Part shown: positions 17,410 through 50,852 of the stretch, one piece after another | How the letters are laid out: the number at the start of each line of letters is the position of its first letter | How positions within the stretch are numbered: position 1 is the first letter of the stretch | Assembly: GCA_041175365.1 (NCBI GenBank) | Contig: JBEDFA010000023.1 | Location: 10,738 to 74,737, forward strand | Direction: 5' to 3' | Length of the DNA stretch: 64,000 nt | Source: Actinomycetota bacterium | Lineage (GTDB): Bacteria; Actinomycetota; Acidimicrobiia; Acidimicrobiales; Ilumatobacteraceae | Made by a program: the position numbers and the translations under genes | Notes under the pieces: model-generated | Databases searched by the model: none | Seen by the model: only the letters and a program-made list of their open reading frames with translations | Told to the model about the DNA's origin: nothing

Positions 17410-17427
17410 TTACTATGGCCGTAGTGC
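17410..17427. promoter_or_regulatory. Candidate suf operator, ACTA-N6-TAGT palindrome (site 1)
   Basis: The sequence is TTACTATGGCCGTAGTGC, 52 nt upstream of the sufB GTG. The core ACTATGGCCGTAGT differs at one central base from ACTATGGGCGTAGT at 50837-50850, upstream of sufC2. Confidence 0.5.
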
Positions 17428-17477: not shown

Positions 17478-18878
17478 GTGACTTCGTTCGATCTTGACCT
17501 CAGTAAGTACAGCCTCGGATGGAGCGACGAAGTCGAATACGCCTTCGCTCCTGAGAAAGGCCTCTCCGACCGCGTGGTCGAGCAGATTTCATGGTGGAAG
17601 GGCGAGCCGAAGTGGATGACCGAATACCGTCTGCGCAGCCTTGGCATCTTTGATCGCAAGCCAATGGCCCCATGGTTTGGCGACAACATGCCAGATCTCG
17701 ACTTCCAAGACATCTTCTATTACTTGAAGCCAGCAACGGCTCAGGTGGATGAATGGGACGACCTGCCCGAGCAGATGAAGCTCACCTACGAGAAGTTGGG
17801 CATTCCCGAAGCAGAGCGCAAGTACCTCGCTGGCGTCACCGCTCAGTACGAATCAGAAGTGGTGTTCCACCGCAACCGTGAAGACCTTGAAGCGCAGGGC
17901 ATTTTGTTCTGCGACATGGATACCGCATTGCGCGAATACCCCGACCTTGTTAAGCAGTACTTCGGCAGTGTGATTCCACCTGCTGACAACAAGTTCTCCG
18001 CACTCAACACTGCAGTGTGGTCCGGTGGATCATTCATCTACGTACCACCAGGCGTTGAATGCGAAATGCCATTGCAGGCGTACTTCCGTATTAACTCGGA
18101 AAACGCTGGACAGTTCGAGCGCACGCTCATCATCGCCGACGAAGGCTCAAAGGTTCACTACATCGAAGGTTGCTCTGCACCGGTGTACACCAGCGACTCG
18201 TTGCACTCTGCTGTTGTGGAAATTGTTGTGAAGCCATCGGCTCACGTGACATACACAACGATTCAGAACTGGTCGCCAAACGTGTACAACTTGGTAACAA
18301 AGCGTGCCCGTGTTGAAGCAGAAGGCCACATGGAATGGATCGATGGCAACATTGGTTCCAAGCTCACCATGAAGTACCCAAGCGTGTACCTCGTGGGTCC
18401 AAAGGCAACAGGCGAAGTGTTGTCCGTTGCATATGCAGGCGCAGGTCAGCATCAGGACGCAGGCGCAAAGATGGTGCACGCAGCACCAGAGACATCGTCA
18501 AAGATCGTTTCGAAGTCCATCAGCAAGGACGGCGGCATCACCGCTTATCGCGGACTTGTTCGCGTGGAAGAGGGTGCCTACGGATGCAAGAGCCACGTGC
18601 AGTGCGACGCACTCATCCTTGATGGCGAGAGCGAAAGCCGCACATTCCCCTACATGGAAGTGGGCGAGAAGGACGCAGAGATCGGACACGAAGCAACCGT
18701 TTCGAAGATTGCCGATGAGCAGTTGTTCTATCTCATGAGCCGTGGCCTTACTCAGGAAGCTGCCATGAGCATGGTGGTGAACGGATTCATTGAGCCCGTG
18801 ACGCGCACATTGCCCATGGAATACGCAGTTGAGTGGAGCCGTCTCATTGAGTTGCAGATGGAAGGTTCCATCGGCTGA
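17478..18878 (+). CDS. sufB: Fe-S cluster assembly scaffold protein SufB
   Basis: 466 aa with a typical SufB sequence ([40 protein letters not shown]). It has a GTG start with AAGGA upstream. Confidence 0.95.
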
Positions 18879-19235
18879 TTGAGCCAATGGGTCTTCGTTA
18901 TGCCAATGCGAACGGAATGCAAGAACTATGAGAGCCGCACCTATGCAAATGGTGATGCGGTGCGTAAGTGCAATCTCGATCTTGCCCCCGAAGCGCCGTG
19001 GCGTTGTCCAGACCCATGCGAAGGGTACGCACGCCGTTTGGCAGATGTGGCCTGGGTGCACGGCAGTGCGATTGCACCGCCCACACCACCAGAAGTGCCT
19101 GGTTTAGATGATGGCTCCGCAGCTGCAGTACTTGATGCAGCAAGCGAAATCATCAACTCCATCAGTGCGCAAACTATTGAAGAAGTCGTAGCAGAACAGT
19201 CGAAGAAGCGTCGTTGGTGGCGCAAGAAGAAGTAG
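18879..19235 (+). CDS. Hypothetical Cys4 mini-protein with polybasic tail, embedded between sufB and sufD
   Basis: The ORF fills the whole sufB-sufD gap, running from the base after the sufB TGA to 7 nt before the sufD ATG. Its cysteine spacing is C-x15-C-x11-C-x3-C (TECKNY..RKCNL..WRCPDPCEGY). The middle is acidic and Pro-rich and the C-terminus is KKRRWWRKKK. The real start may be ATG 18900 or 18906. I recognise no family. Confidence 0.55.
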   Translation: MSQWVFVMPMRTECKNYESRTYANGDAVRKCNLDLAPEAPWRCPDPCEGYARRLADVAWVHGSAIAPPTPPEVPGLDDGSAAAVLDAASEIINSISAQTIEEVVAEQSKKRRWWRKKK

Positions 19236-19242
19236 CAGATTC

Positions 19243-20310
19243 ATGAATACAACCCCCACACTCCCCAGCACCGAAGAAGAGATCTGGCGTTACAGCCGTA
19301 TCGGTGAACTTGATCTGTCTGCGTTCGCCGCAGGCACCGCACGCACAGAGACAGTCGGTCTTGATGCAGTGCGTGTGAAGGAATCTCTCGCCGGCATCGC
19401 AATGAATGGCACGCCCGATGTGTTTGCAGAACTCAACGCGGCAAACGCAGAGACGATCTCGTTGCGCATCCCCAAGGGTGTTGCTGTTGATGGTGTCATC
19501 GAAATCATTCACCACATCGAAGCCGATGGCATTGTTGCCTATCCACGTTTGATCATTGATGCGGAGCCAGAGAGTCAAGTTACTGTCGTCGAGCGTTTCG
19601 TTTCGAATGACAATGTGAAGTCACTTGTTGTTCCTGTGCTCGAGATTCGTTCTGCTGCCAGTGCCAACGTGAACTACGTCGGTGTCAACCAATTGGGTCT
19701 TCGTACTTGGATGATTGCTCACCAACAGACGGTGGGTCATCGCGATTCGAACACTCGCCTCAACACGATTGCTCTCGGCGGCGATTACGCACGAGTGCGT
19801 GCAGAAGTGCGTTTGGTGGAGTCTGGTGCGAATGCACAGCAACTTGCGTTGTACTTCGCAAGCGGCACTCAGATGCACGACTTCCGCACCCTGCAGCGTC
19901 ACGAAGCACCACGTACCTACAGTGACCTGTTGTTCAAGGGTGCTGTTGGCGGCAGCGCACGCAGCGTGTACACCGGACTCATTCGAATTGAGAAGAACGC
20001 TGGCAAGTCCGAAGCGTTCCAGACCAACCGCAACCTCACCTTGGGTGCAGGTGCATGGGCAGAGAGCGTGCCCAACCTTGAGATTGAAACCAACGAAGTG
20101 AAGTGCAGCCATGCCAGCACCGTTGGTTCGATTGACCAGGAACAGCGGTTCTATTTGGAAAGCCGTGGCATCTCGCCAGAAGTAGCTGAACGTCTCGTGG
20201 TGTTCGGTTTCTTCAAGGATGTTCTTGATCGTTTGCCATCGAATGTGGACACCACTTCGTTGGAAGCAGAGATTGCAGAAAAGTTGCGTCGTGAAGAGGC
20301 AGCGCAGTGA
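19243..20310 (+). CDS. sufD: Fe-S cluster assembly protein SufD
   Basis: It has a SufB/D beta-helix region ending in KCSHASTVGSIDQEQRFYLESRGI. It sits downstream of sufB. Confidence 0.9.
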   Translation: MNTTPTLPSTEEEIWRYSRIGELDLSAFAAGTARTETVGLDAVRVKESLAGIAMNGTPDVFAELNAANAETISLRIPKGVAVDGVIEIIHHIEADGIVAYPRLIIDAEPESQVTVVERFVSNDNVKSLVVPVLEIRSAASANVNYVGVNQLGLRTWMIAHQQTVGHRDSNTRLNTIALGGDYARVRAEVRLVESGANAQQLALYFASGTQMHDFRTLQRHEAPRTYSDLLFKGAVGGSARSVYTGLIRIEKNAGKSEAFQTNRNLTLGAGAWAESVPNLEIETNEVKCSHASTVGSIDQEQRFYLESRGISPEVAERLVVFGFFKDVLDRLPSNVDTTSLEAEIAEKLRREEAAQ

Positions 20311-20627
20311 GCGTTGTTGCCAAGTTCGACGAACTGAAGTCTGGCGAAGCCCAGCGCGTGATGGTGGATGGCGTCGCTGTCGCTGTCGTTCGTATCGAGG
20401 ACGAAGTATTTGCTGTTGCCGACATGTGCAGCCACGCAAATGTGTCGTTGTCGGAAGGCACTGTCATGTGCGAGACCAAGCACATCGAGTGCTTCAAGCA
20501 CGGAAGTGCTTTCAGTTTGGAAACCGGCATTCCAGATGCATTGCCTGCCACAAAGCCTGTTGCAGTTTTCTCTGCATCAGTCGTTGACGGAAATGTCGTT
20601 GTTGAAACAAAGGATGGTGCGAAGTGA
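20307..20627 (+). CDS. Rieske [2Fe-2S] ferredoxin-like protein
   Basis: The Rieske ligand boxes are CSHANVSL (CxH) and CFKHGSAF (CxxH). It has 4-nt overlaps with both sufD and sufC. This position is known from other actinobacterial suf operons. Confidence 0.85.
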   Translation: MSVVAKFDELKSGEAQRVMVDGVAVAVVRIEDEVFAVADMCSHANVSLSEGTVMCETKHIECFKHGSAFSLETGIPDALPATKPVAVFSASVVDGNVVVETKDGAK

Positions 20628-21349
20628 GCACACTGAAAATCACAGGCTTGACTGCAGAAGTCGCCGATAAGCAAATTCTCAATGGCATCGACCTTGAAGT
20701 GAACTCAGGTGAAGTGCATGCCATCATGGGGCCCAACGGCGCCGGTAAGAGCACATTGTCCGCGGTCATCATGGGCAAGCCCGGATACACCGTCACTGGT
20801 GGCAGCGTCACACTCGATGGTGTTGACATGCTTGCGTTGCCAACATGGCAGCGTGCTGCGGCTGGATTGCATCTCGTGATGCAGTACCCCACAGAAGTTC
20901 CTGGCGTGCATGTTGATCAGGTGCTGGCAGAAGCTCTCACCGCACGTGGTCGTGATACGAAGGACATGGCTGCTCGCATCGCTGTTGAAGCGGGCCGCAT
21001 CAACTTTGACGCCAACCTTGTTTCGCGTGCGATGAATGTTGACCTCTCTGGTGGAGAGAAGAAGCGCAATGAAACATTGCAGTTGGGAATGCTGGAGCCG
21101 AAGTTCGCGATTCTCGACGAATTGGATTCTGGTCTCGATATTGACGCATTGCGTGACTGCGCACGCCGCGTTGAAGCTGCAACGCACGAGAACAACTTGG
21201 GTGTTCTTGCCATTACGCACTACGTACGCTTGTTGGAAGAACTCAAGCCCGACGTCGTACATATTCTCGCTGCAGGTCGCATCGTGAAGACAGGCGGCCC
21301 AGAGCTTGCCGACATTCTCGAGCGCGACGGCTACGCCGCCTTCGTTTGA
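20624..21349 (+). CDS. sufC: Fe-S cluster assembly ATPase SufC (copy 1, divergent)
   Basis: Walker A is GPNGAGKST, the ABC signature is LSGGEKKRNE, and Walker B is AILDELDSGLDIDA. It ends in the ITHY..LL motif. Confidence 0.9.
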   Translation: MSTLKITGLTAEVADKQILNGIDLEVNSGEVHAIMGPNGAGKSTLSAVIMGKPGYTVTGGSVTLDGVDMLALPTWQRAAAGLHLVMQYPTEVPGVHVDQVLAEALTARGRDTKDMAARIAVEAGRINFDANLVSRAMNVDLSGGEKKRNETLQLGMLEPKFAILDELDSGLDIDALRDCARRVEAATHENNLGVLAITHYVRLLEELKPDVVHILAAGRIVKTGGPELADILERDGYAAFV

Positions 21350-21417
21350 CTCTGACTCGTTCAGTCATTCAATAGACCTGCCGTAGGTCTAGGGTGCCCT
21401 TTGGGAAGGGGGCTCCC

Positions 21418-22662
21418 ATGACAACGTCAACTAACCGTGTGTATCTCGCTCGCGAGGGCAAATTTCCGGGCTGGTGGGTCGTTGGCGGATGTTTCGCTGT
21501 TCTGTTCTTTGGCTCGTCTTTGGGCTTTTACGGAATGGGCGTCTACCTCAATGCATTCTCGAAAGAGTTTGGTTGGAAGATTTCTTCGCTGTCCATCGCG
21601 ACGACGTTCTTCTTTCTGATCGGCGGTTTGTGGAATGTGGTCGTTGCGCGACTGATCGCAAAGTTTGATGTTCGCTACTTGATGTATGGCGGCGCAGTTG
21701 TCGGCGCCGGATCGCTGTACATGTTGGGCCATGTCACCGAGAAGTGGCATCTGTTTGTTGTGTATGCAATCTTTGCAATTGCATGGTCGTCGAGTGGGCT
21801 CACTGCTGCAACAACTGTCGTGACGAGATGGTTCCATGTGAAGCGCGCTTCGGCGATTGCGGCGGCATCATCGGGACTTTCTGTGGGCGGCATTTTGTTG
21901 ACGCCATTCGTAAAGAAGTTGATCGATGCGCAACAGATGAGCGGAGCAAGTATCTATCTTGCTCTCATTTGGCTCTTCGGAATGTCGATTCCCGCCTTCC
22001 TTCTGATTCGTCCGGATCCATTGGCCCTGAACTGGATGCCAGATGGTCAACCAAAGCCAGAAAATCACGTTTCTGATTTGCCAGGCACGTCAATGGCAGA
22101 TGCCATCCGTACAAAATTCTTTTGGGTTGTCACGATTGGCTACGTGTTGGTGATGGGTGCACAAGTGGGTGCTATCCAGCAGATCGTGAAATTGGTGGAA
22201 GAGCGCACAACACCAGGAACAGCTGCTCTTGCAACCTCTGTTTTGTCGGGCGCAAGTGTGGTGTTCCGACTTGTGGGTGGACGCATCATTCCGAAATTCC
22301 CGCTAGCGAAGTTCATGGTCTTCATTGCCGCTGTGCAGGGCTCAGCCATCATTTTGATTGGTCAGATGGAAAACACGATTCTGTTGTTTATTGCTATCGG
22401 ACTCTTCGGTGCCATGGTGGGGAACGTGCTCATGATGCAATCGTTGCTGATTGCACAGCGATTCGGCGTTAAAGATTATGCGCGAATCTCGGCGCGTTCA
22501 GGACTAGTGAGTCTTACAGGCACCGCAATCGGGCCAATTCTGATTGGCAGTATTCGTGACACTTCGGGCAACTACACAGTGCCGTACCTAGTTGCCGGCT
22601 GTATCTCCCTGGTGGGCGCACTGTTGTTTACAACAAGTGGACCAGCCGAAGTAGAAGACTAG
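21418..22662 (+). CDS. MFS transporter
   Basis: Track ORF 21394..22662. It has about 12 hydrophobic segments. I placed the start at ATG 21418, which is preceded by GAAGGGGG at SD distance. Confidence 0.85.
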   Translation: MTTSTNRVYLAREGKFPGWWVVGGCFAVLFFGSSLGFYGMGVYLNAFSKEFGWKISSLSIATTFFFLIGGLWNVVVARLIAKFDVRYLMYGGAVVGAGSLYMLGHVTEKWHLFVVYAIFAIAWSSSGLTAATTVVTRWFHVKRASAIAAASSGLSVGGILLTPFVKKLIDAQQMSGASIYLALIWLFGMSIPAFLLIRPDPLALNWMPDGQPKPENHVSDLPGTSMADAIRTKFFWVVTIGYVLVMGAQVGAIQQIVKLVEERTTPGTAALATSVLSGASVVFRLVGGRIIPKFPLAKFMVFIAAVQGSAIILIGQMENTILLFIAIGLFGAMVGNVLMMQSLLIAQRFGVKDYARISARSGLVSLTGTAIGPILIGSIRDTSGNYTVPYLVAGCISLVGALLFTTSGPAEVED

Positions 22663-48334: not shown

Positions 48335-48775
48335 TTATTCAGCGGCGATGTCGAGTGCTTCGGCCAATGTGTTCCATGACAACACTGCGCACTTGATGCG
48401 CACAGGGAACTTCACGACGCCTGTGAGCGCTTCAAGATCGCCGAGTGGAGCAGATGTATCTGGCTCGCCATCTTCTTCGATGGACATCATGTGCTTGAAA
48501 CGGCTGATGAGTGCGCGAATTTCTGCAATGGGCTTGCCCTTGACTGCAGCGCTCATCATTGATGCAGAGCTTTGGCTGATGGAGCATCCCTGGCCGCTGA
48601 TCTTGATATCGGAAACCTTGTCGTCTTCGACGGCGATGAACACTTCAATCTCGTCACCACACAATGGGTTATGACCTTCGGCGCGCACTGCAGGTGGTTC
48701 AAGGGAGCCACGGTTGCGTGGGCTCTTGTAATGATCAAGAATGATTTCGCGGTAGAGGTCTTCGAGGCCGGGCAT
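48335..48775 (-). CDS. sufU: Fe-S cluster assembly sulfur-transfer protein SufU
   Basis: The motifs are LYREIILDHYKSPRN, NPLCGDEI, GQGCSISQSSASMM and VKFPVRIKCA, which are diagnostic of SufU/IscU-like proteins. Confidence 0.9.
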   Translation of the reverse strand: MPGLEDLYREIILDHYKSPRNRGSLEPPAVRAEGHNPLCGDEIEVFIAVEDDKVSDIKISGQGCSISQSSASMMSAAVKGKPIAEIRALISRFKHMMSIEEDGEPDTSAPLGDLEALTGVVKFPVRIKCAVLSWNTLAEALDIAAE

Positions 48776-48804
48776 GGTGTGTCTCCGTGTCTAGAACTAT
48801 GAGG

Positions 48805-50037
48805 CTAGAGGGTGAAGAAGTCGCCCGCGGCGGATAGCGCATCGCAAAGGGCGTCAACTTCTTGGTTGGTGTTGTACAGGTAGAAACTGGCGCGCACGGT
48901 GGCATTAGAGCCCAGCAAACGCATGAGCGGCTTGGCGCAGTGGTGTCCAGCGCGAACGCACACATTTGTTTGGTCAAGCACTTGGCTGACGTCGTGAGGA
49001 TGAACATCCCGATACGCAAAGCTAAGTGTGGCTCCGCGCACCGACACATCACGACTTCCGTGGATCACGATGTCGTCGCCAAATCGGCTGGTGAGAGTGT
49101 CCAGCGCATAGGTGGTGATGTCGATTTCGTGCTGACGAATGTTCTGCATGCCAAGTGCAGTCAAGTAATCAACTGCGGCGCTGAGACCAATGGCTTCGAT
49201 GATGGGTTGAGTGCCTGCTTCGAACTTGGCAGGAAGTTCCGCACATGTGAACCCATCAAGTTTCACGTCGGCAATCATGTTGCCGCCGCCAAGGAACGGT
49301 GGCATTGCATCGAGTAGAGATTCGCGTCCCCACAACATGCCGATGCCGGTGGGGCCGACCATCTTGTGGCTACTGAATGCGAGGAAGTCTGCGTCTAATG
49401 CCTGCACGTCGGTGGGCATGTGTGGAACTGATTGACAACCATCAACGATTGCAATCGCACCGTGCTTGTGTGCGGCTGCTACGAGCTCAGCAACAGGGTT
49501 GATTGTTCCGAGAACATTGGACATTGCGGTGAAAGAAAATGCTTTCGCGCCAGTGAGCAATGTGTCGAGATCGGAGAGGTCGAGAAGGCCGTCGGAAGTG
49601 AGTGGAACCCAACGAATGGTGAAGCCACGCTCTGCAGCAAGCATCTGCCACGGAACAATGTTTGCGTGATGTTCCATGTGCGTGAGAAGAACGACATCGC
49701 CCTTATTGAGGTTTGCGGAACCCCACGCGCGAGCAACAAGGTTGAGAGCTTCTGTTGCGTTTTTTGTGAACACCACTTCATGTGCATGCGGTGCATTGAT
49801 GAACTTGGCAACCTTGGCGCGCGCACCTTCGTACAAATCTGTTGCATGTGCAGCCATTGAGTAAGCACTGCGATTCGTCGGGCTGTATTCATGCGACATG
49901 AAATTGCTCATCGCATCGATGACCGACAAAGGCTTCTGTGAAGAGTTTGCGGAGTCGAGATACACCAGCGGCTTGCCGTTGATGACTTCTGCGAGAACAG
50001 GGAAGTCAGCGCGGATTTTCTGTACGTCGTAGCTCAC
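48805..50037 (-). CDS. sufS: Cysteine desulfurase SufS
   Basis: The motifs are the PLP-lysine motif FSSHKMVGPTGIG, the active-site loop RAGHHCAKP, and LTHMEHHANIVPW. Confidence 0.93.
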   Translation of the reverse strand: MSYDVQKIRADFPVLAEVINGKPLVYLDSANSSQKPLSVIDAMSNFMSHEYSPTNRSAYSMAAHATDLYEGARAKVAKFINAPHAHEVVFTKNATEALNLVARAWGSANLNKGDVVLLTHMEHHANIVPWQMLAAERGFTIRWVPLTSDGLLDLSDLDTLLTGAKAFSFTAMSNVLGTINPVAELVAAAHKHGAIAIVDGCQSVPHMPTDVQALDADFLAFSSHKMVGPTGIGMLWGRESLLDAMPPFLGGGNMIADVKLDGFTCAELPAKFEAGTQPIIEAIGLSAAVDYLTALGMQNIRQHEIDITTYALDTLTSRFGDDIVIHGSRDVSVRGATLSFAYRDVHPHDVSQVLDQTNVCVRAGHHCAKPLMRLLGSNATVRASFYLYNTNQEVDALCDALSAAGDFFTL

Positions 50038-50042
50038 AACGA

Positions 50043-50804
50043 TTACGCCTTGTAGGCCTCGTAGCCGTTCTTTTCAAGTTCAGCAGCAACTTCCATGCCA
50101 CCGGACTTCACGATGCGTCCGTCAATCATGATGTGTACGTGATCGGGCTGCAGTTCGTCAAGAAGGCGCTGGTAGTGCGTGATGAGAAGAATGCCCAAGT
50201 TCGGACGGTCTGCGCGAACCTCGCGAATACCTTTTGCAACGATGCGCAATGCGTCGATGTCGAGACCTGAGTCTGTTTCGTCGAGAACTGCGAACTCTGG
50301 TTCGAGCAATGCCATCTGCATGATCTCGTTGCGCTTCTTTTCGCCACCGGAGAAACCTTCGTTGAGGTAACGGTCGACGAAAGAAGAGTCCATGCCCAGA
50401 CGCTTCATCCAGTCCATGGCGGACAAACGAAGTTCAAGGACGGAGAGGTCTATTCCCTTGCGTGCCGACAAGGCCTGGCGAAGGAACTGGATGACGGAGA
50501 CTCCGGCAATTTCCTGTGGGTATTGGAAGGCGAGGAACATGCCAGCCTTGGCACGCACATCTGTGGTCCAGTCGGTGATGTTTTCGTCGTTGAGGAAAAT
50601 GTCGCCCGAGGTGACTTCGTATTCGGGAGAGGCGAGCAGTGTGCTGGCCAAGGTGGACTTGCCACAGCCATTGGGGCCCATGATGGCGTGCACTTCGCCA
50701 GCGCCCACTTTGAGAGAGAGCCCGCGAAGAATCTCGGCAGGGGTCTCGCCATCGTCAGTGACGGGGCGGGCGTGGAGGTTCTCAATACGGAAAAGTTCGC
50801 TCAC
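50043..50804 (-). CDS. sufC: Fe-S cluster assembly ATPase SufC (copy 2, canonical-looking)
   Basis: The motifs are GPNGCGKST, FLAFQYPQEIAGV, LNEGFSGGEKKRNEI, VLDETDSGLDIDAL and ITHYQRLL. It has a GTG start and lies 5 nt upstream of sufS. Confidence 0.92.
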   Translation of the reverse strand: MSELFRIENLHARPVTDDGETPAEILRGLSLKVGAGEVHAIMGPNGCGKSTLASTLLASPEYEVTSGDIFLNDENITDWTTDVRAKAGMFLAFQYPQEIAGVSVIQFLRQALSARKGIDLSVLELRLSAMDWMKRLGMDSSFVDRYLNEGFSGGEKKRNEIMQMALLEPEFAVLDETDSGLDIDALRIVAKGIREVRADRPNLGILLITHYQRLLDELQPDHVHIMIDGRIVKSGGMEVAAELEKNGYEAYKA

Positions 50805-50834: not shown

Positions 50835-50852
50835 CCACTATGGGCGTAGTGG
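50835..50852. promoter_or_regulatory. Candidate suf operator, ACTA-N6-TAGT palindrome (site 2)
   Basis: The sequence is CCACTATGGGCGTAGTGG, a perfect 6+6 inverted repeat with a 6-nt spacer. It sits in the 51-nt gap between the desaturase stop and the sufC2 start. It matches site 1 (17412-17425) at 13 of 14 core positions. Confidence 0.5.

What the first reader, a model, noticed from the sequence alone, without database searches (positions are those of the whole stretch)
18879..19235. Unrecognised Cys4 mini-protein with a polybasic tail inserted between sufB and sufD
Canonical actinobacterial suf operons go directly from sufB to sufD. Here a 357-nt ORF fills the gap exactly, from the base after the sufB TGA to 7 nt before the sufD ATG.

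The product has four cysteines spaced C-x15-C-x11-C-x3-C in its first 46 residues. It has an acidic, Pro-rich middle and ends in KKRRWWRKKK. The architecture is small, has four Cys and has a basic C-terminus. This is reminiscent of the Fe-S-binding WhiB-like regulators, but the Cys spacing differs from the Wbl pattern (C-xn-C-x2-C-x5-C).

No sufR gene is adjacent to this suf operon. An Fe-S-sensing accessory or regulatory role is therefore conceivable. This is hypothesis only.
Basis: partly seen in the sequence, partly recalled or inferred. Interest (0 to 1): 0.62.

Follow-up and report, generated by a model that had tools for sequence, protein, structure and literature searches.

The report
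Unnamed four-cysteine protein inside SUF operon
The small gene between sufB and sufD is real and belongs to an unnamed four-cysteine protein family found across the class Acidimicrobiia, usually inside the operon that builds iron-sulfur clusters, so it is probably an undescribed accessory part of that machine, although its function is untested.

Summary
The Cys spacing is C-x16-C-x11-C-x3-C, not x15.

It is a real gene. dN/dS is 0.02-0.17 against relatives. There are 2,227 homologues, and every informatively named locus is Acidimicrobiia. The spacing is identical in 238 of 239 loci.

Of those 239 loci, 148 place it directly beside sufB and/or sufD. A further 22 place it near other Fe-S assembly genes. 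About 50 are unlinked and fall mainly in three clades.

No Pfam, NCBIfam, PDB-sequence or Foldseek relative was found. It is not a WhiB-like protein.

The architecture is conserved: a rigid Cys4 domain, a Pro-rich acidic linker, a conserved amphipathic helix and a basic tail with aromatic residues.

My best reading is a class-specific metal- or cluster-binding accessory subunit of the SUF scaffold. The metal, the partner and the role of the tail are inferred, not shown. A role as a DNA-binding regulator is unlikely, because a conserved palindromic operator upstream of sufB points to a separate dimeric regulator.

The parts
17410..17427 (.). Palindromic operator (GTTACTATGGCCGTAGTGCA core) upstream of sufB. 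It is the probable binding site of a separate repressor, not of the small protein.
   Evidence: The ACT-N8-AGT palindrome was found within 200 nt upstream of sufB in 57 of 107 related loci, most as TACTAT-N4-GTAGTG. A second copy lies upstream of sufC2 at 50835-50852.
17478..18878 (+). sufB, 466 aa
   Evidence: TIGR01980, 703 bits. The functional residues C254, C405, H433 and E434 (E. coli numbering) are kept. The E. coli N-terminal CxxCxxxC motif is absent.
18879..18899 (+). 21-nt sufB-X spacer. It is open and in frame here, but it is not conserved coding sequence.
   Evidence: Spacer lengths among relatives run from -1 to 121 nt in all three frames. Metatranscriptome contigs of relatives diverge here and converge again at ATGCCAATGCG.
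18900..19235 (+). Gene X: a 111-aa protein (MPMRTECK...RRWWRKKK) plus its stop codon. The alternative start is the invariant Met at 18906.
   Evidence: 2,227 homologues. dN/dS 0.02-0.17. Alignments A1 and A3.
18900..19049 (+). N-terminal Cys4 domain, residues 1-50. The Cys codons are at 18918, 18969, 19005 and 19017 (C7, C24, C36, C40).
   Evidence: Invariant residues are C7, R13, Y15, C24, A29, P30, A32, P33, W34, R35, C36, P37 and C40. The spacing is 16/11/3 in 238 of 239 loci, and 235 of 239 proteins have exactly four Cys. AF2 pLDDT is 82-86, with a beta-hairpin at 10-14 and 20-24.
19050..19115 (+). Pro-rich acidic linker, residues 51-72
   Evidence: This is the lowest-confidence stretch before the C-terminal tail (pLDDT 60-73). 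Its sequence varies but it stays Pro- and Glu-rich.
19116..19199 (+). Conserved acidic amphipathic helix, residues 73-100. The family motif is LLDxAEDIVNA.
   Evidence: L78 is invariant. A75, A81, E82, I84 and N86 are conserved in at least 90% of members. AF2 predicts a helix over 73-110 with pLDDT 85-89.
19200..19232 (+). Cationic, aromatic C-terminal tail, SKKRRWWRKKK
   Evidence: 157 of 159 relatives have an aromatic residue in the last 20 aa. The median there is 8 Lys/Arg. 104 of 159 have a WW, FF or WF pair.
19243..20310 (+). sufD, 355 aa
   Evidence: TIGR01981, 231 bits. C358 and H360 are kept.
20307..20627 (+). Rieske-type [2Fe-2S] ferredoxin. It overlaps sufD and sufC by 4 nt each.
   Evidence: PF00355, 1.1e-17.
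20624..21349 (+). sufC
   Evidence: TIGR01978, 272 bits.
48335..50804 (-). Second suf fragment in the window, sufC2-sufS-sufU. It is context, not part of the gene.
   Evidence: ABC_tran, Aminotran_5 (2.4e-136) and NifU_N. The same operator lies upstream.

Best explanation
**Shown.** Gene X is a separately translated protein of about 111 aa. It is transcribed as part of the sufB-X-sufD-Rieske-sufC operon. It belongs to an unnamed family that is restricted, as far as can be seen, to the class Acidimicrobiia. The ancestral position of the gene is the sufB-sufD slot.

**Inferred.** The rigid N-terminal C-x16-C-x11-C-x3-C domain binds a metal centre. I put an Fe-S cluster at about 50% and structural Zn at about 35%.

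The conserved amphipathic helix (LLDxAEDIVN) docks the protein onto a partner. The most likely partner is the SufB/SufD/SufC scaffold, with which it is co-produced.

The cationic Trp/Phe tail attaches it to an anionic surface. That could be the membrane, an acidic protein patch or nucleic acid.

On this reading it is a class-specific accessory subunit or adaptor of the SUF scaffold. It would help in cluster hand-off, electron hand-off or positioning. It would not be a transcription factor.
For: **The gene is real and expressed.**
- dN/dS is 0.02-0.17 with saturated dS.
- There are 2,227 homologues and 277 representatives of 50%-identity clusters.
- No promoter-like or terminator-like site flanks the gene.
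- It lies 21 nt after sufB and 7 nt before sufD, and the downstream genes overlap by 4 nt.
- Metatranscriptome contigs of 90-95% relatives cross the sufB-X and X-sufD junctions.

**Link to SUF.**
- Of 239 loci, 80 show tight sufB-X-sufD, 33 show sufB-X only and 30 show X-sufD only. When unrelated genes are inserted, X stays with one of the two partners.
- Another 22 loci lie among other Fe-S genes. Examples are sufB2-sufC2-sufD2-sufU-sufT-ApbC-Nfu-X (L092) and X convergent with sufU-sufS (L089).
- The adjacent state occurs on both sides of the family tree.

**Metal site.**
- The four Cys are invariant with fixed spacing in 238 of 239 loci, and 235 of 239 proteins have exactly four Cys.
- An invariant AP-x-APWRCP-xx-C knuckle is present.
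- The domain folds with confidence (pLDDT 82-86) only when a deep alignment is used.
- There is a local resemblance to the EKPYKCPEC zinc knuckle.

**Docking helix and tail.** Both are conserved in character.
Against: - No metal binding, interaction or phenotype has been measured.
- About 50 of 239 loci (21%), mostly in one 50-row clade plus clades of 10 and 5, have no suf gene within 4-6 kb. The function may therefore not depend on SUF in those lineages, or those copies may be paralogues.
- No structural relative was found that would support any fold-based inference.
- Only 39 of 159 genes have a Shine-Dalgarno-like sequence.
- Metatranscriptome contigs can contain DNA, and they come from relatives, not from this strain.
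Confidence: 0.55

Rival explanations
1. X is an Fe-S-sensing regulator, a functional analogue of WhiB-like proteins or a stand-in for SufR. Cluster occupancy of the Cys4 domain would report Fe-S status. The basic tail would bind DNA or the transcription machinery to tune suf expression.
For: - Four Cys plus a basic C-terminal tail resembles the overall layout of Wbl proteins.
- No sufR, Rrf2 or ArsR gene is in the window.
- A conserved operator precedes both suf loci, so some regulator is needed.
Against: - No Wbl HMM match in 149 members at E<=5, while a true WhiB of the same class scores 1.4e-14. hhalign gives 0.35%.
- X has no helix-turn-helix or other DNA-binding domain.
- The operator is a 5-N4-5 palindrome, typical of dimeric helix-turn-helix repressors.
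- SufR- and Rrf2-type regulators are present beside suf genes in the class.
- X sits mid-operon between two scaffold subunits, often overlapping the sufB stop codon (gap of -1 nt in 12 loci). It is not in the first or divergent position that iscR and sufR occupy.
Confidence: 0.13
2. X is a membrane tether. The cationic Trp/Phe tail inserts at the anionic membrane surface and brings the SUF scaffold, or a nascent cluster, next to membrane Fe-S enzymes. The Cys4 domain would be only structural and bind Zn.
For: - The tail composition is conserved: median 8 Lys/Arg, and a WW, FF or WF pair in 104 of 159.
- From my own recollection, RRWWRF-type peptides bind anionic membranes.
- Two divergent members (P0164, P0197) carry a real transmembrane helix directly after the basic stretch.
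- An MFS transporter gene repeatedly follows sufC or X.
Against: - The transmembrane variant is known from only two singleton sequences with no contig on record.
- Basic aromatic tails also bind nucleic acids or acidic protein patches.
- No hydrophobic segment exists in any of the 159 locus-derived proteins.
Confidence: 0.15
3. X is a small zinc-finger protein whose job is unrelated to Fe-S assembly. It would merely be carried in the sufB-sufD slot by inherited gene order.
For: - About 21% of loci are not linked to suf and lie in varied contexts: rph-rdgB-unknown-X, MarR/MFS, and M50 peptidase.
- There is a local match to the C2H2 zinc-knuckle sequence.
Against: - The linkage survives rearrangements on either side.
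- The linkage re-forms with different Fe-S genes: sufS-sufU, sufT-ApbC-Nfu and a second sufBC.
- The adjacent state is spread over the whole tree.
Confidence: 0.12
4. X is not an independent gene. It would be either a chance ORF or a C-terminal extension of SufB made by reading through the TGA.
For: In this window the ORF is in frame with sufB and starts on the base after its TGA.
Against: - Only 32 of 92 relatives are in frame, which is the chance expectation.
- The spacer is not conserved.
- Purifying selection is strong.
- The family also occurs away from sufB.
Confidence: 0.01

Closest known systems
WhiB-like (Wbl) [4Fe-4S] proteins of Actinomycetota (Pfam PF02467)
   Same: Both are small actinobacterial proteins with four invariant Cys near the N-terminus and a basic C-terminal tail.
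   Different: - There is no sequence or profile similarity.
- The Cys spacing is 16/11/3 rather than C-xn-C-x2-C-x5-C, and there is no GVWGG turn.
- The predicted fold is a beta-hairpin plus loops, not a helical bundle.
- X is encoded inside a biosynthetic operon.
SufR (ArsR-type Fe-S repressor of suf operons, for example M. tuberculosis Rv1460; PMC6034842)
   Same: Both are suf-linked and Cys-containing. SufR uses widely spaced single Cys to bind a cluster.
   Different: - X has no helix-turn-helix domain and is about 110 aa rather than about 210-250 aa.
- X does not match TIGR02702.
- A genuine SufR homologue exists in the class next to a second sufBC pair (L061).
Small accessory proteins of Fe-S operons (SufA/IscA A-type carriers, SufT/DUF59, SufE, IscX)
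   Same: All are small proteins co-encoded with the scaffold and needed for hand-off or regulation rather than for catalysis. X sits in the same kind of place.
   Different: X has no homology to any of them. It has a different Cys pattern and a unique linker-helix-basic-tail architecture. It is restricted to one class.
Thioredoxin-like [2Fe-2S] ferredoxins. The Cys pattern C-x(10-12)-C-x(29-34)-C-x3-C is from my own recollection.
   Same: Both have two isolated Cys followed by a C-x3-C pair.
   Different: The spacings differ (16/11/3). The X domain is only about 45 residues, too small for a thioredoxin fold. There is no HMM or fold match.
Classical C2H2 zinc-finger knuckle (TGEKPYKCPECGKSF)
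   Same: There is a local sequence match of E-A-P-W-R-C-P-x-x-C-x-x-Y to E-K-P-Y-K-C-P-E-C-G-K-S-F.
   Different: X has C-x3-C, not C-x2-C, and no His pair. The match is significant only because the target repeats. It is probably convergent.

Membership tests
WhiB-like (Wbl, PF02467) | Match to the family HMM | tested here: not met
   No hit for the window protein at E<=0.1. No hit in any of 149 members at E<=5. As a positive control, a WhiB in locus L111 of the same class scores 1.4e-14.
WhiB-like (Wbl, PF02467) | Cys motif C-xn-C-x2-C-x5-C and a G[VI]WGG turn | tested here: not met
   The spacing is C-x16-C-x11-C-x3-C in 238 of 239 loci. No GVWGG-like motif appears in the alignments. hhalign against WhiB1 gives 0.35% probability.
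WhiB-like (Wbl, PF02467) | Binds an O2/NO-sensitive [4Fe-4S] cluster and sigma-A | not testable with these tools
   This needs anaerobic purification, spectroscopy and pull-downs.
SufR / ArsR-type Fe-S regulators | Winged helix-turn-helix DNA-binding domain and a match to TIGR02702 | tested here: not met
   No NCBIfam or Pfam hit for X. A real SufR homologue in L061 scores 2.2e-27.
Component of the SUF operon (operon membership, not homology) | Same strand, tight spacing, no internal promoter or terminator, co-transcription, conserved adjacency | tested here: met
   The spacers are 21 and 7 nt. There are no promoter-like or terminator-like sites. Contigs from RNA libraries cross both junctions in relatives. 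148 of 239 loci are adjacent to sufB and/or sufD.
Physical subunit of the SufBC2D scaffold | Stable or transient binding to SufB, SufC or SufD | not testable with these tools
This needs co-purification or AlphaFold-Multimer.
A-type carriers, SufT, SufE, Nfu and IscX | Match to the respective HMMs | tested here: not met
   No family matched at E<=0.1 in Pfam or NCBIfam. No family recurs among the 149 members.
Zinc ribbon / C2H2 zinc fingers | Two CxxC knuckles (ribbon), or C-x2-4-C...H-x3-5-H (C2H2); also structural similarity | tested here: not met
   X has only one C-x3-C pair plus two single Cys, and no conserved His. Foldseek against the PDB finds nothing below E=2. There is only a local knuckle-like sequence match.

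The most novel reading that the evidence does not exclude
X is a previously unrecognised fifth protein of the actinobacterial SUF scaffold. It would carry its own Fe-S cluster on a new about 45-residue fold. It would dock on SufB/SufD through its conserved helix. It would act as the built-in cluster carrier or electron relay, possibly at the membrane through its Arg/Trp tail. This would mean that a whole bacterial class, including very abundant freshwater and marine lineages, runs a SUF machine whose composition differs from the textbook SufBC2D.
Probability: 0.3. Interest if true: 0.75.

Novelty: new variant of a known kind. Interest (0 to 1): 0.55.

Why it matters
SUF is the main or only Fe-S cluster assembly system in Actinomycetota. 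From my own knowledge, its core composition (SufB, SufC, SufD, SufS, SufU or SufE) is regarded as settled.

A rigidly conserved extra protein sits between the two scaffold subunits throughout a whole class. That class includes the abundant freshwater acIV/Ilumatobacteraceae lineage. If the protein is a scaffold partner, it would be a new component of an essential pathway.

It would also be a new small metal-binding fold, and a case of lineage-specific elaboration of Fe-S biogenesis.

It is directly testable. The protein is small. A cultured host that carries it exists (Actinospongicola halichondriae Hal317, L090). The four Cys, the helix and the tail give clear mutational targets.

Tried and rejected
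- **Wbl homology** was rejected.
- **Known families.** Pfam and NCBIfam scans of the window protein and a Pfam scan of 149 family members found nothing recurrent.
- **PDB sequence search.** The full-length profile found nothing. The N-domain profile found only a repeat-inflated local match to C2H2 knuckles.
- **Structure.** The shallow-alignment AF2 model was useless (pLDDT 49). The deep-alignment model (pLDDT 80) gave no Foldseek match in the PDB below E=2. Coordinates are not exposed, so Cys-Cys distances could not be measured.
- **SufB-X read-through fusion** was rejected, because the frame relation is random.
- **X replaces in trans the N-terminal CxxCxxxC motif of E. coli SufB.** There is no support. 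The motif is absent from this SufB. It is also absent from the proteobacterial-type second SufB in a locus where X is not between sufB and sufD.
- **X supplies missing scaffold ligands** was rejected. SufB C254, C405, H433 and E434 and SufD C358 and H360 are all present.
- **Domain fusions as a clue to function.** The long hits in the representative search look like frameshifts or chimeric gene calls.
- **The transmembrane-anchored variant** could not be placed in a genomic context.
- **A single low-GC member (P0208)** as a query for loci found nothing.
- **Literature.** No paper describing the family turned up in three searches.
- **Whole-genome questions.** I could not ask whether unlinked copies are second copies, whether SufA is absent or where the regulator is.

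Full report
**1. The observation**

The window holds an open frame at 18879..19235 on the + strand. It begins on the base after the sufB stop codon (TGA, 18876-18878). It ends 7 nt before the sufD ATG at 19243.

- sufB (TIGR01980, 703 bits)
- sufD (TIGR01981, 231 bits)
- a Rieske ferredoxin (PF00355)
- sufC (TIGR01978)
- an MFS transporter downstream
- a divergently transcribed ychF upstream

Two details need correcting.

The cysteine spacing is C-x16-C-x11-C-x3-C, not x15.

The true start is not the TTG at 18879. In alignments of relatives, conservation begins at MPMR. That is ATG 18900, and the Met at 18906 is invariant. Metatranscriptome contigs of relatives have different spacers that converge on ATGCCAATGCG. 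The protein is therefore about 111 aa.

The exact fit in frame with sufB is a coincidence. Among 92 relatives with a short spacer, 32 are in frame, 25 are in the +1 frame and 35 are in the +2 frame. Spacers range from -1 to 121 nt.

**2. Is it a gene?**

An open frame alone means little here, because antisense ORFs of 81-187 aa overlap the same interval. Conservation settles the question:
- A word-indexed search found 2,227 homologues, all unnamed or called hypothetical.
- An exhaustive HMM search found 277 representatives of 50%-identity clusters.
- Against 47 relatives, dN is 0.09-0.33 while dS is saturated. Where dS can be computed, dN/dS is 0.02-0.17.
- GC content matches the neighbouring genes.
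- No promoter-like or terminator-like site flanks the gene.
- Contigs from RNA libraries of 90-95% identical relatives run across both the sufB-X and the X-sufD junctions. They may contain DNA.

Only 39 of 159 genes have a Shine-Dalgarno-like sequence. Translation initiation is therefore probably coupled or independent of Shine-Dalgarno pairing.

**3. Who has it?**

They confirmed 563, 578 and 519 relatives.

Every informatively named locus is Acidimicrobiia. The names include Ilumatobacteraceae/acIV, Iamiaceae, Microthrixaceae, Aldehydirespiratoraceae and Rhabdothermincola. The isolate Actinospongicola halichondriae Hal317 (L090) is among them. A few MAG labels such as 'Bifidobacterium' or 'Burkholderiales' are evidently mis-assigned. 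The window's own copy is nearest to freshwater Ilumatobacteraceae.

**4. Where does it sit?**

The 239 loci break down as follows:

| Context | Loci |
|---|---|
| Tight sufB-X-sufD | 80 |
| sufB-X only | 33 |
| X-sufD only | 30 |
| Adjacent to sufB or sufD, other flank cut by a contig end | 5 |
| Other Fe-S assembly genes within 4 kb | 22 |
| No suf gene within 4-6 kb | 50 |
| Flanks too short to judge | 19 |

When unrelated genes have been inserted into the operon, X stays with sufB in some genomes and with sufD in others.

The 22 'other Fe-S' cases are informative:
- L092 has sufB2-sufC2-sufD2-sufU-sufT-ApbC/Mrp-Nfu-X.
- L089 has X convergent with sufU-sufS, next to an Rrf2 regulator.
- L061 has X-MFS-SufR-sufB2-sufC2.

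On a family tree, most of the unlinked copies form three clades, of 50, 10 and 5 rows. The suf-adjacent state is found on both sides of the tree. The sufB-sufD slot is therefore probably ancestral.

I could not tell whether the unlinked copies are relocated orthologues or extra paralogues, because whole-genome search was shut.

**5. Anatomy**

The family has a fixed four-part plan.

(i) *Residues 1-50.* The invariant residues are C7, R13, Y15, C24, A29, P30, A32, P33, W34, R35, C36, P37 and C40. The spacing is 16/11/3 in 238 of 239 loci. Exactly four Cys are present in 235 of 239. With a 149-sequence alignment, AF2 models this part at pLDDT 82-86 as a beta-hairpin (10-14 and 20-24) followed by the APWRCPxxC loop. 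With a shallow alignment it did not fold (pLDDT 49).

(ii) *A Pro-rich acidic linker.* This part has low model confidence.

(iii) *A helix with a conserved face.* The motif is LLDxAEDIVN. L78 is invariant, and A81, E82, I84 and N86 are at least 90% conserved.

(iv) *A cationic tail.* It has a median of 8 Lys/Arg in the last 20 residues. An aromatic residue is present in 157 of 159, and a WW, FF or WF pair in 104 of 159. The middle of the protein has a median net charge of -8.

**6. Comparison with known families**

- Nothing matches in Pfam or NCBIfam for the window protein. No Pfam family recurs among 149 members even at E<=5.
- PDB sequence searches found nothing for the full-length profile. 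For the N-domain profile they found only a repeat-inflated local match of EAPWRCPxxC to the EKPYKCPEC knuckle of C2H2 fingers.
- Foldseek against the PDB found nothing below E=2.
- The Wbl idea fails every testable criterion: HMM, Cys motif, turn motif and predicted fold. A genuine WhiB from the same class is detected easily, and hhalign gives 0.35%.
- The canonical actinobacterial order sufR-sufB-sufD-sufC-csd-sufU-sufT is documented for M. tuberculosis (PMC6034842, found). The insertion of X is therefore a real departure from it.

**7. Mechanism**

*Shown:* X is a selected, operon-embedded, class-wide protein with a rigid Cys4 module.

*Inferred:* the Cys4 module binds a metal.
- Two isolated Cys plus a C-x3-C pair, a Cys-Pro motif and the Fe-S operon context lean toward an Fe-S cluster.
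- The knuckle-like sequence and the very small domain keep structural Zn as a serious alternative.

*Inferred:* the conserved helix face is a docking surface. Mid-operon placement, often overlapping the sufB stop codon (gap of -1 nt in 12 loci), fits production in step with the scaffold subunits.

*Inferred:* the tail binds an anionic surface. Two divergent members have a true transmembrane helix right after the basic stretch. This hints at the membrane, but these are singletons with no genomic context.

SufB and SufD keep all their known functional residues. X is therefore an addition to the scaffold, not a replacement for a lost ligand.

A regulatory role is less likely. The conserved TACTAT-N4-GTAGTG palindrome lies upstream of sufB in many of the 57 of 107 loci that carry the looser ACT-N8-AGT pattern. 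It also lies upstream of both suf loci of this window. It looks like the site of a dimeric helix-turn-helix repressor. X has no such domain. SufR- and Rrf2-type regulators occur in the class, although none lies in this window.

**8. Relation to earlier notes of this scan**

Five first-reader notes describe the same C-x16-C-x11-C-x3-C protein between sufB and sufD in other genomes. One follow-up on a 77-residue copy reached the same view, that the family spans the class and is linked to Fe-S assembly. These are AI notes, not independent evidence. My synteny and alignment results agree with them. The palindrome note was checked and extended.

**9. Verdict**

The family is undescribed in the libraries and papers I could search. 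It is a new component and variant of a well-known system, and its biochemical role is still to be shown.

Noticed in passing
window 17410-17427 and 50835-50852; upstream of sufB in L001-L079: A palindromic operator of the form TACTAT-N4-GTAGTG is conserved. The looser ACT-N8-AGT pattern was found within 200 nt upstream of sufB in 57 of 107 related loci. It precedes both suf loci of the window. No SufR, Rrf2 or ArsR homologue lies in the window, so the regulator is encoded elsewhere.
   Followed up: partly
window 21394-22662; L002, L005-L009, L054, L061 and others: An MFS transporter (best NCBIfam matches: L-lactate and oxalate/formate antiporter types) repeatedly follows sufC, or follows X directly, in Ilumatobacteraceae loci. 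This linkage of a transporter with Fe-S assembly genes is unexplained.
   Followed up: partly
window 48335-50804 (-): The suf system of this genome is split. A second sufC, sufS and sufU form a separate cluster about 30 kb away, behind the same operator.
   Followed up: partly
L105, L114, L115 (SufB matches split by about 0.9-1.2 kb): In some Acidimicrobiia, SufB aligns in two pieces around residue 125 with about 1 kb between them. This looks like an intein insertion, as is known for mycobacterial SufB.
   Followed up: no
L054, L061, L068, L070, L078; L092, L100, L119, L160: Some lineages carry a second, proteobacterial-type sufB-sufC pair (PRK11814, 886 bits in L061) with a SufR homologue, or a full second operon sufB2-sufC2-sufD2-sufU-sufT-ApbC-Nfu. 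X lies next to these rather than between sufB and sufD.
   Followed up: partly
L162, L151 and about 16 neighbour ORFs in the 50-row unlinked clade: In the large unlinked clade, X is usually preceded by a conserved protein of about 185 aa with no Pfam family (MAVIDIAGFVADLKDHAVEHGF...). In the loci inspected (L151, L203), RNase PH- and RdgB-like genes lie further upstream (my reading of their N-terminal sequences).
   Followed up: partly
L073 and L139, downstream of X: In a 5-row unlinked clade, X lies directly upstream of a membrane M50 (site-2 protease family) peptidase.
   Followed up: no
P0164 and P0197 (representative-library sequences): Two divergent family members continue after the basic stretch into a predicted transmembrane helix (LGGIV[FY]VAVRP) and an extracytoplasmic tail. 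No contig is on record for them.
   Followed up: partly
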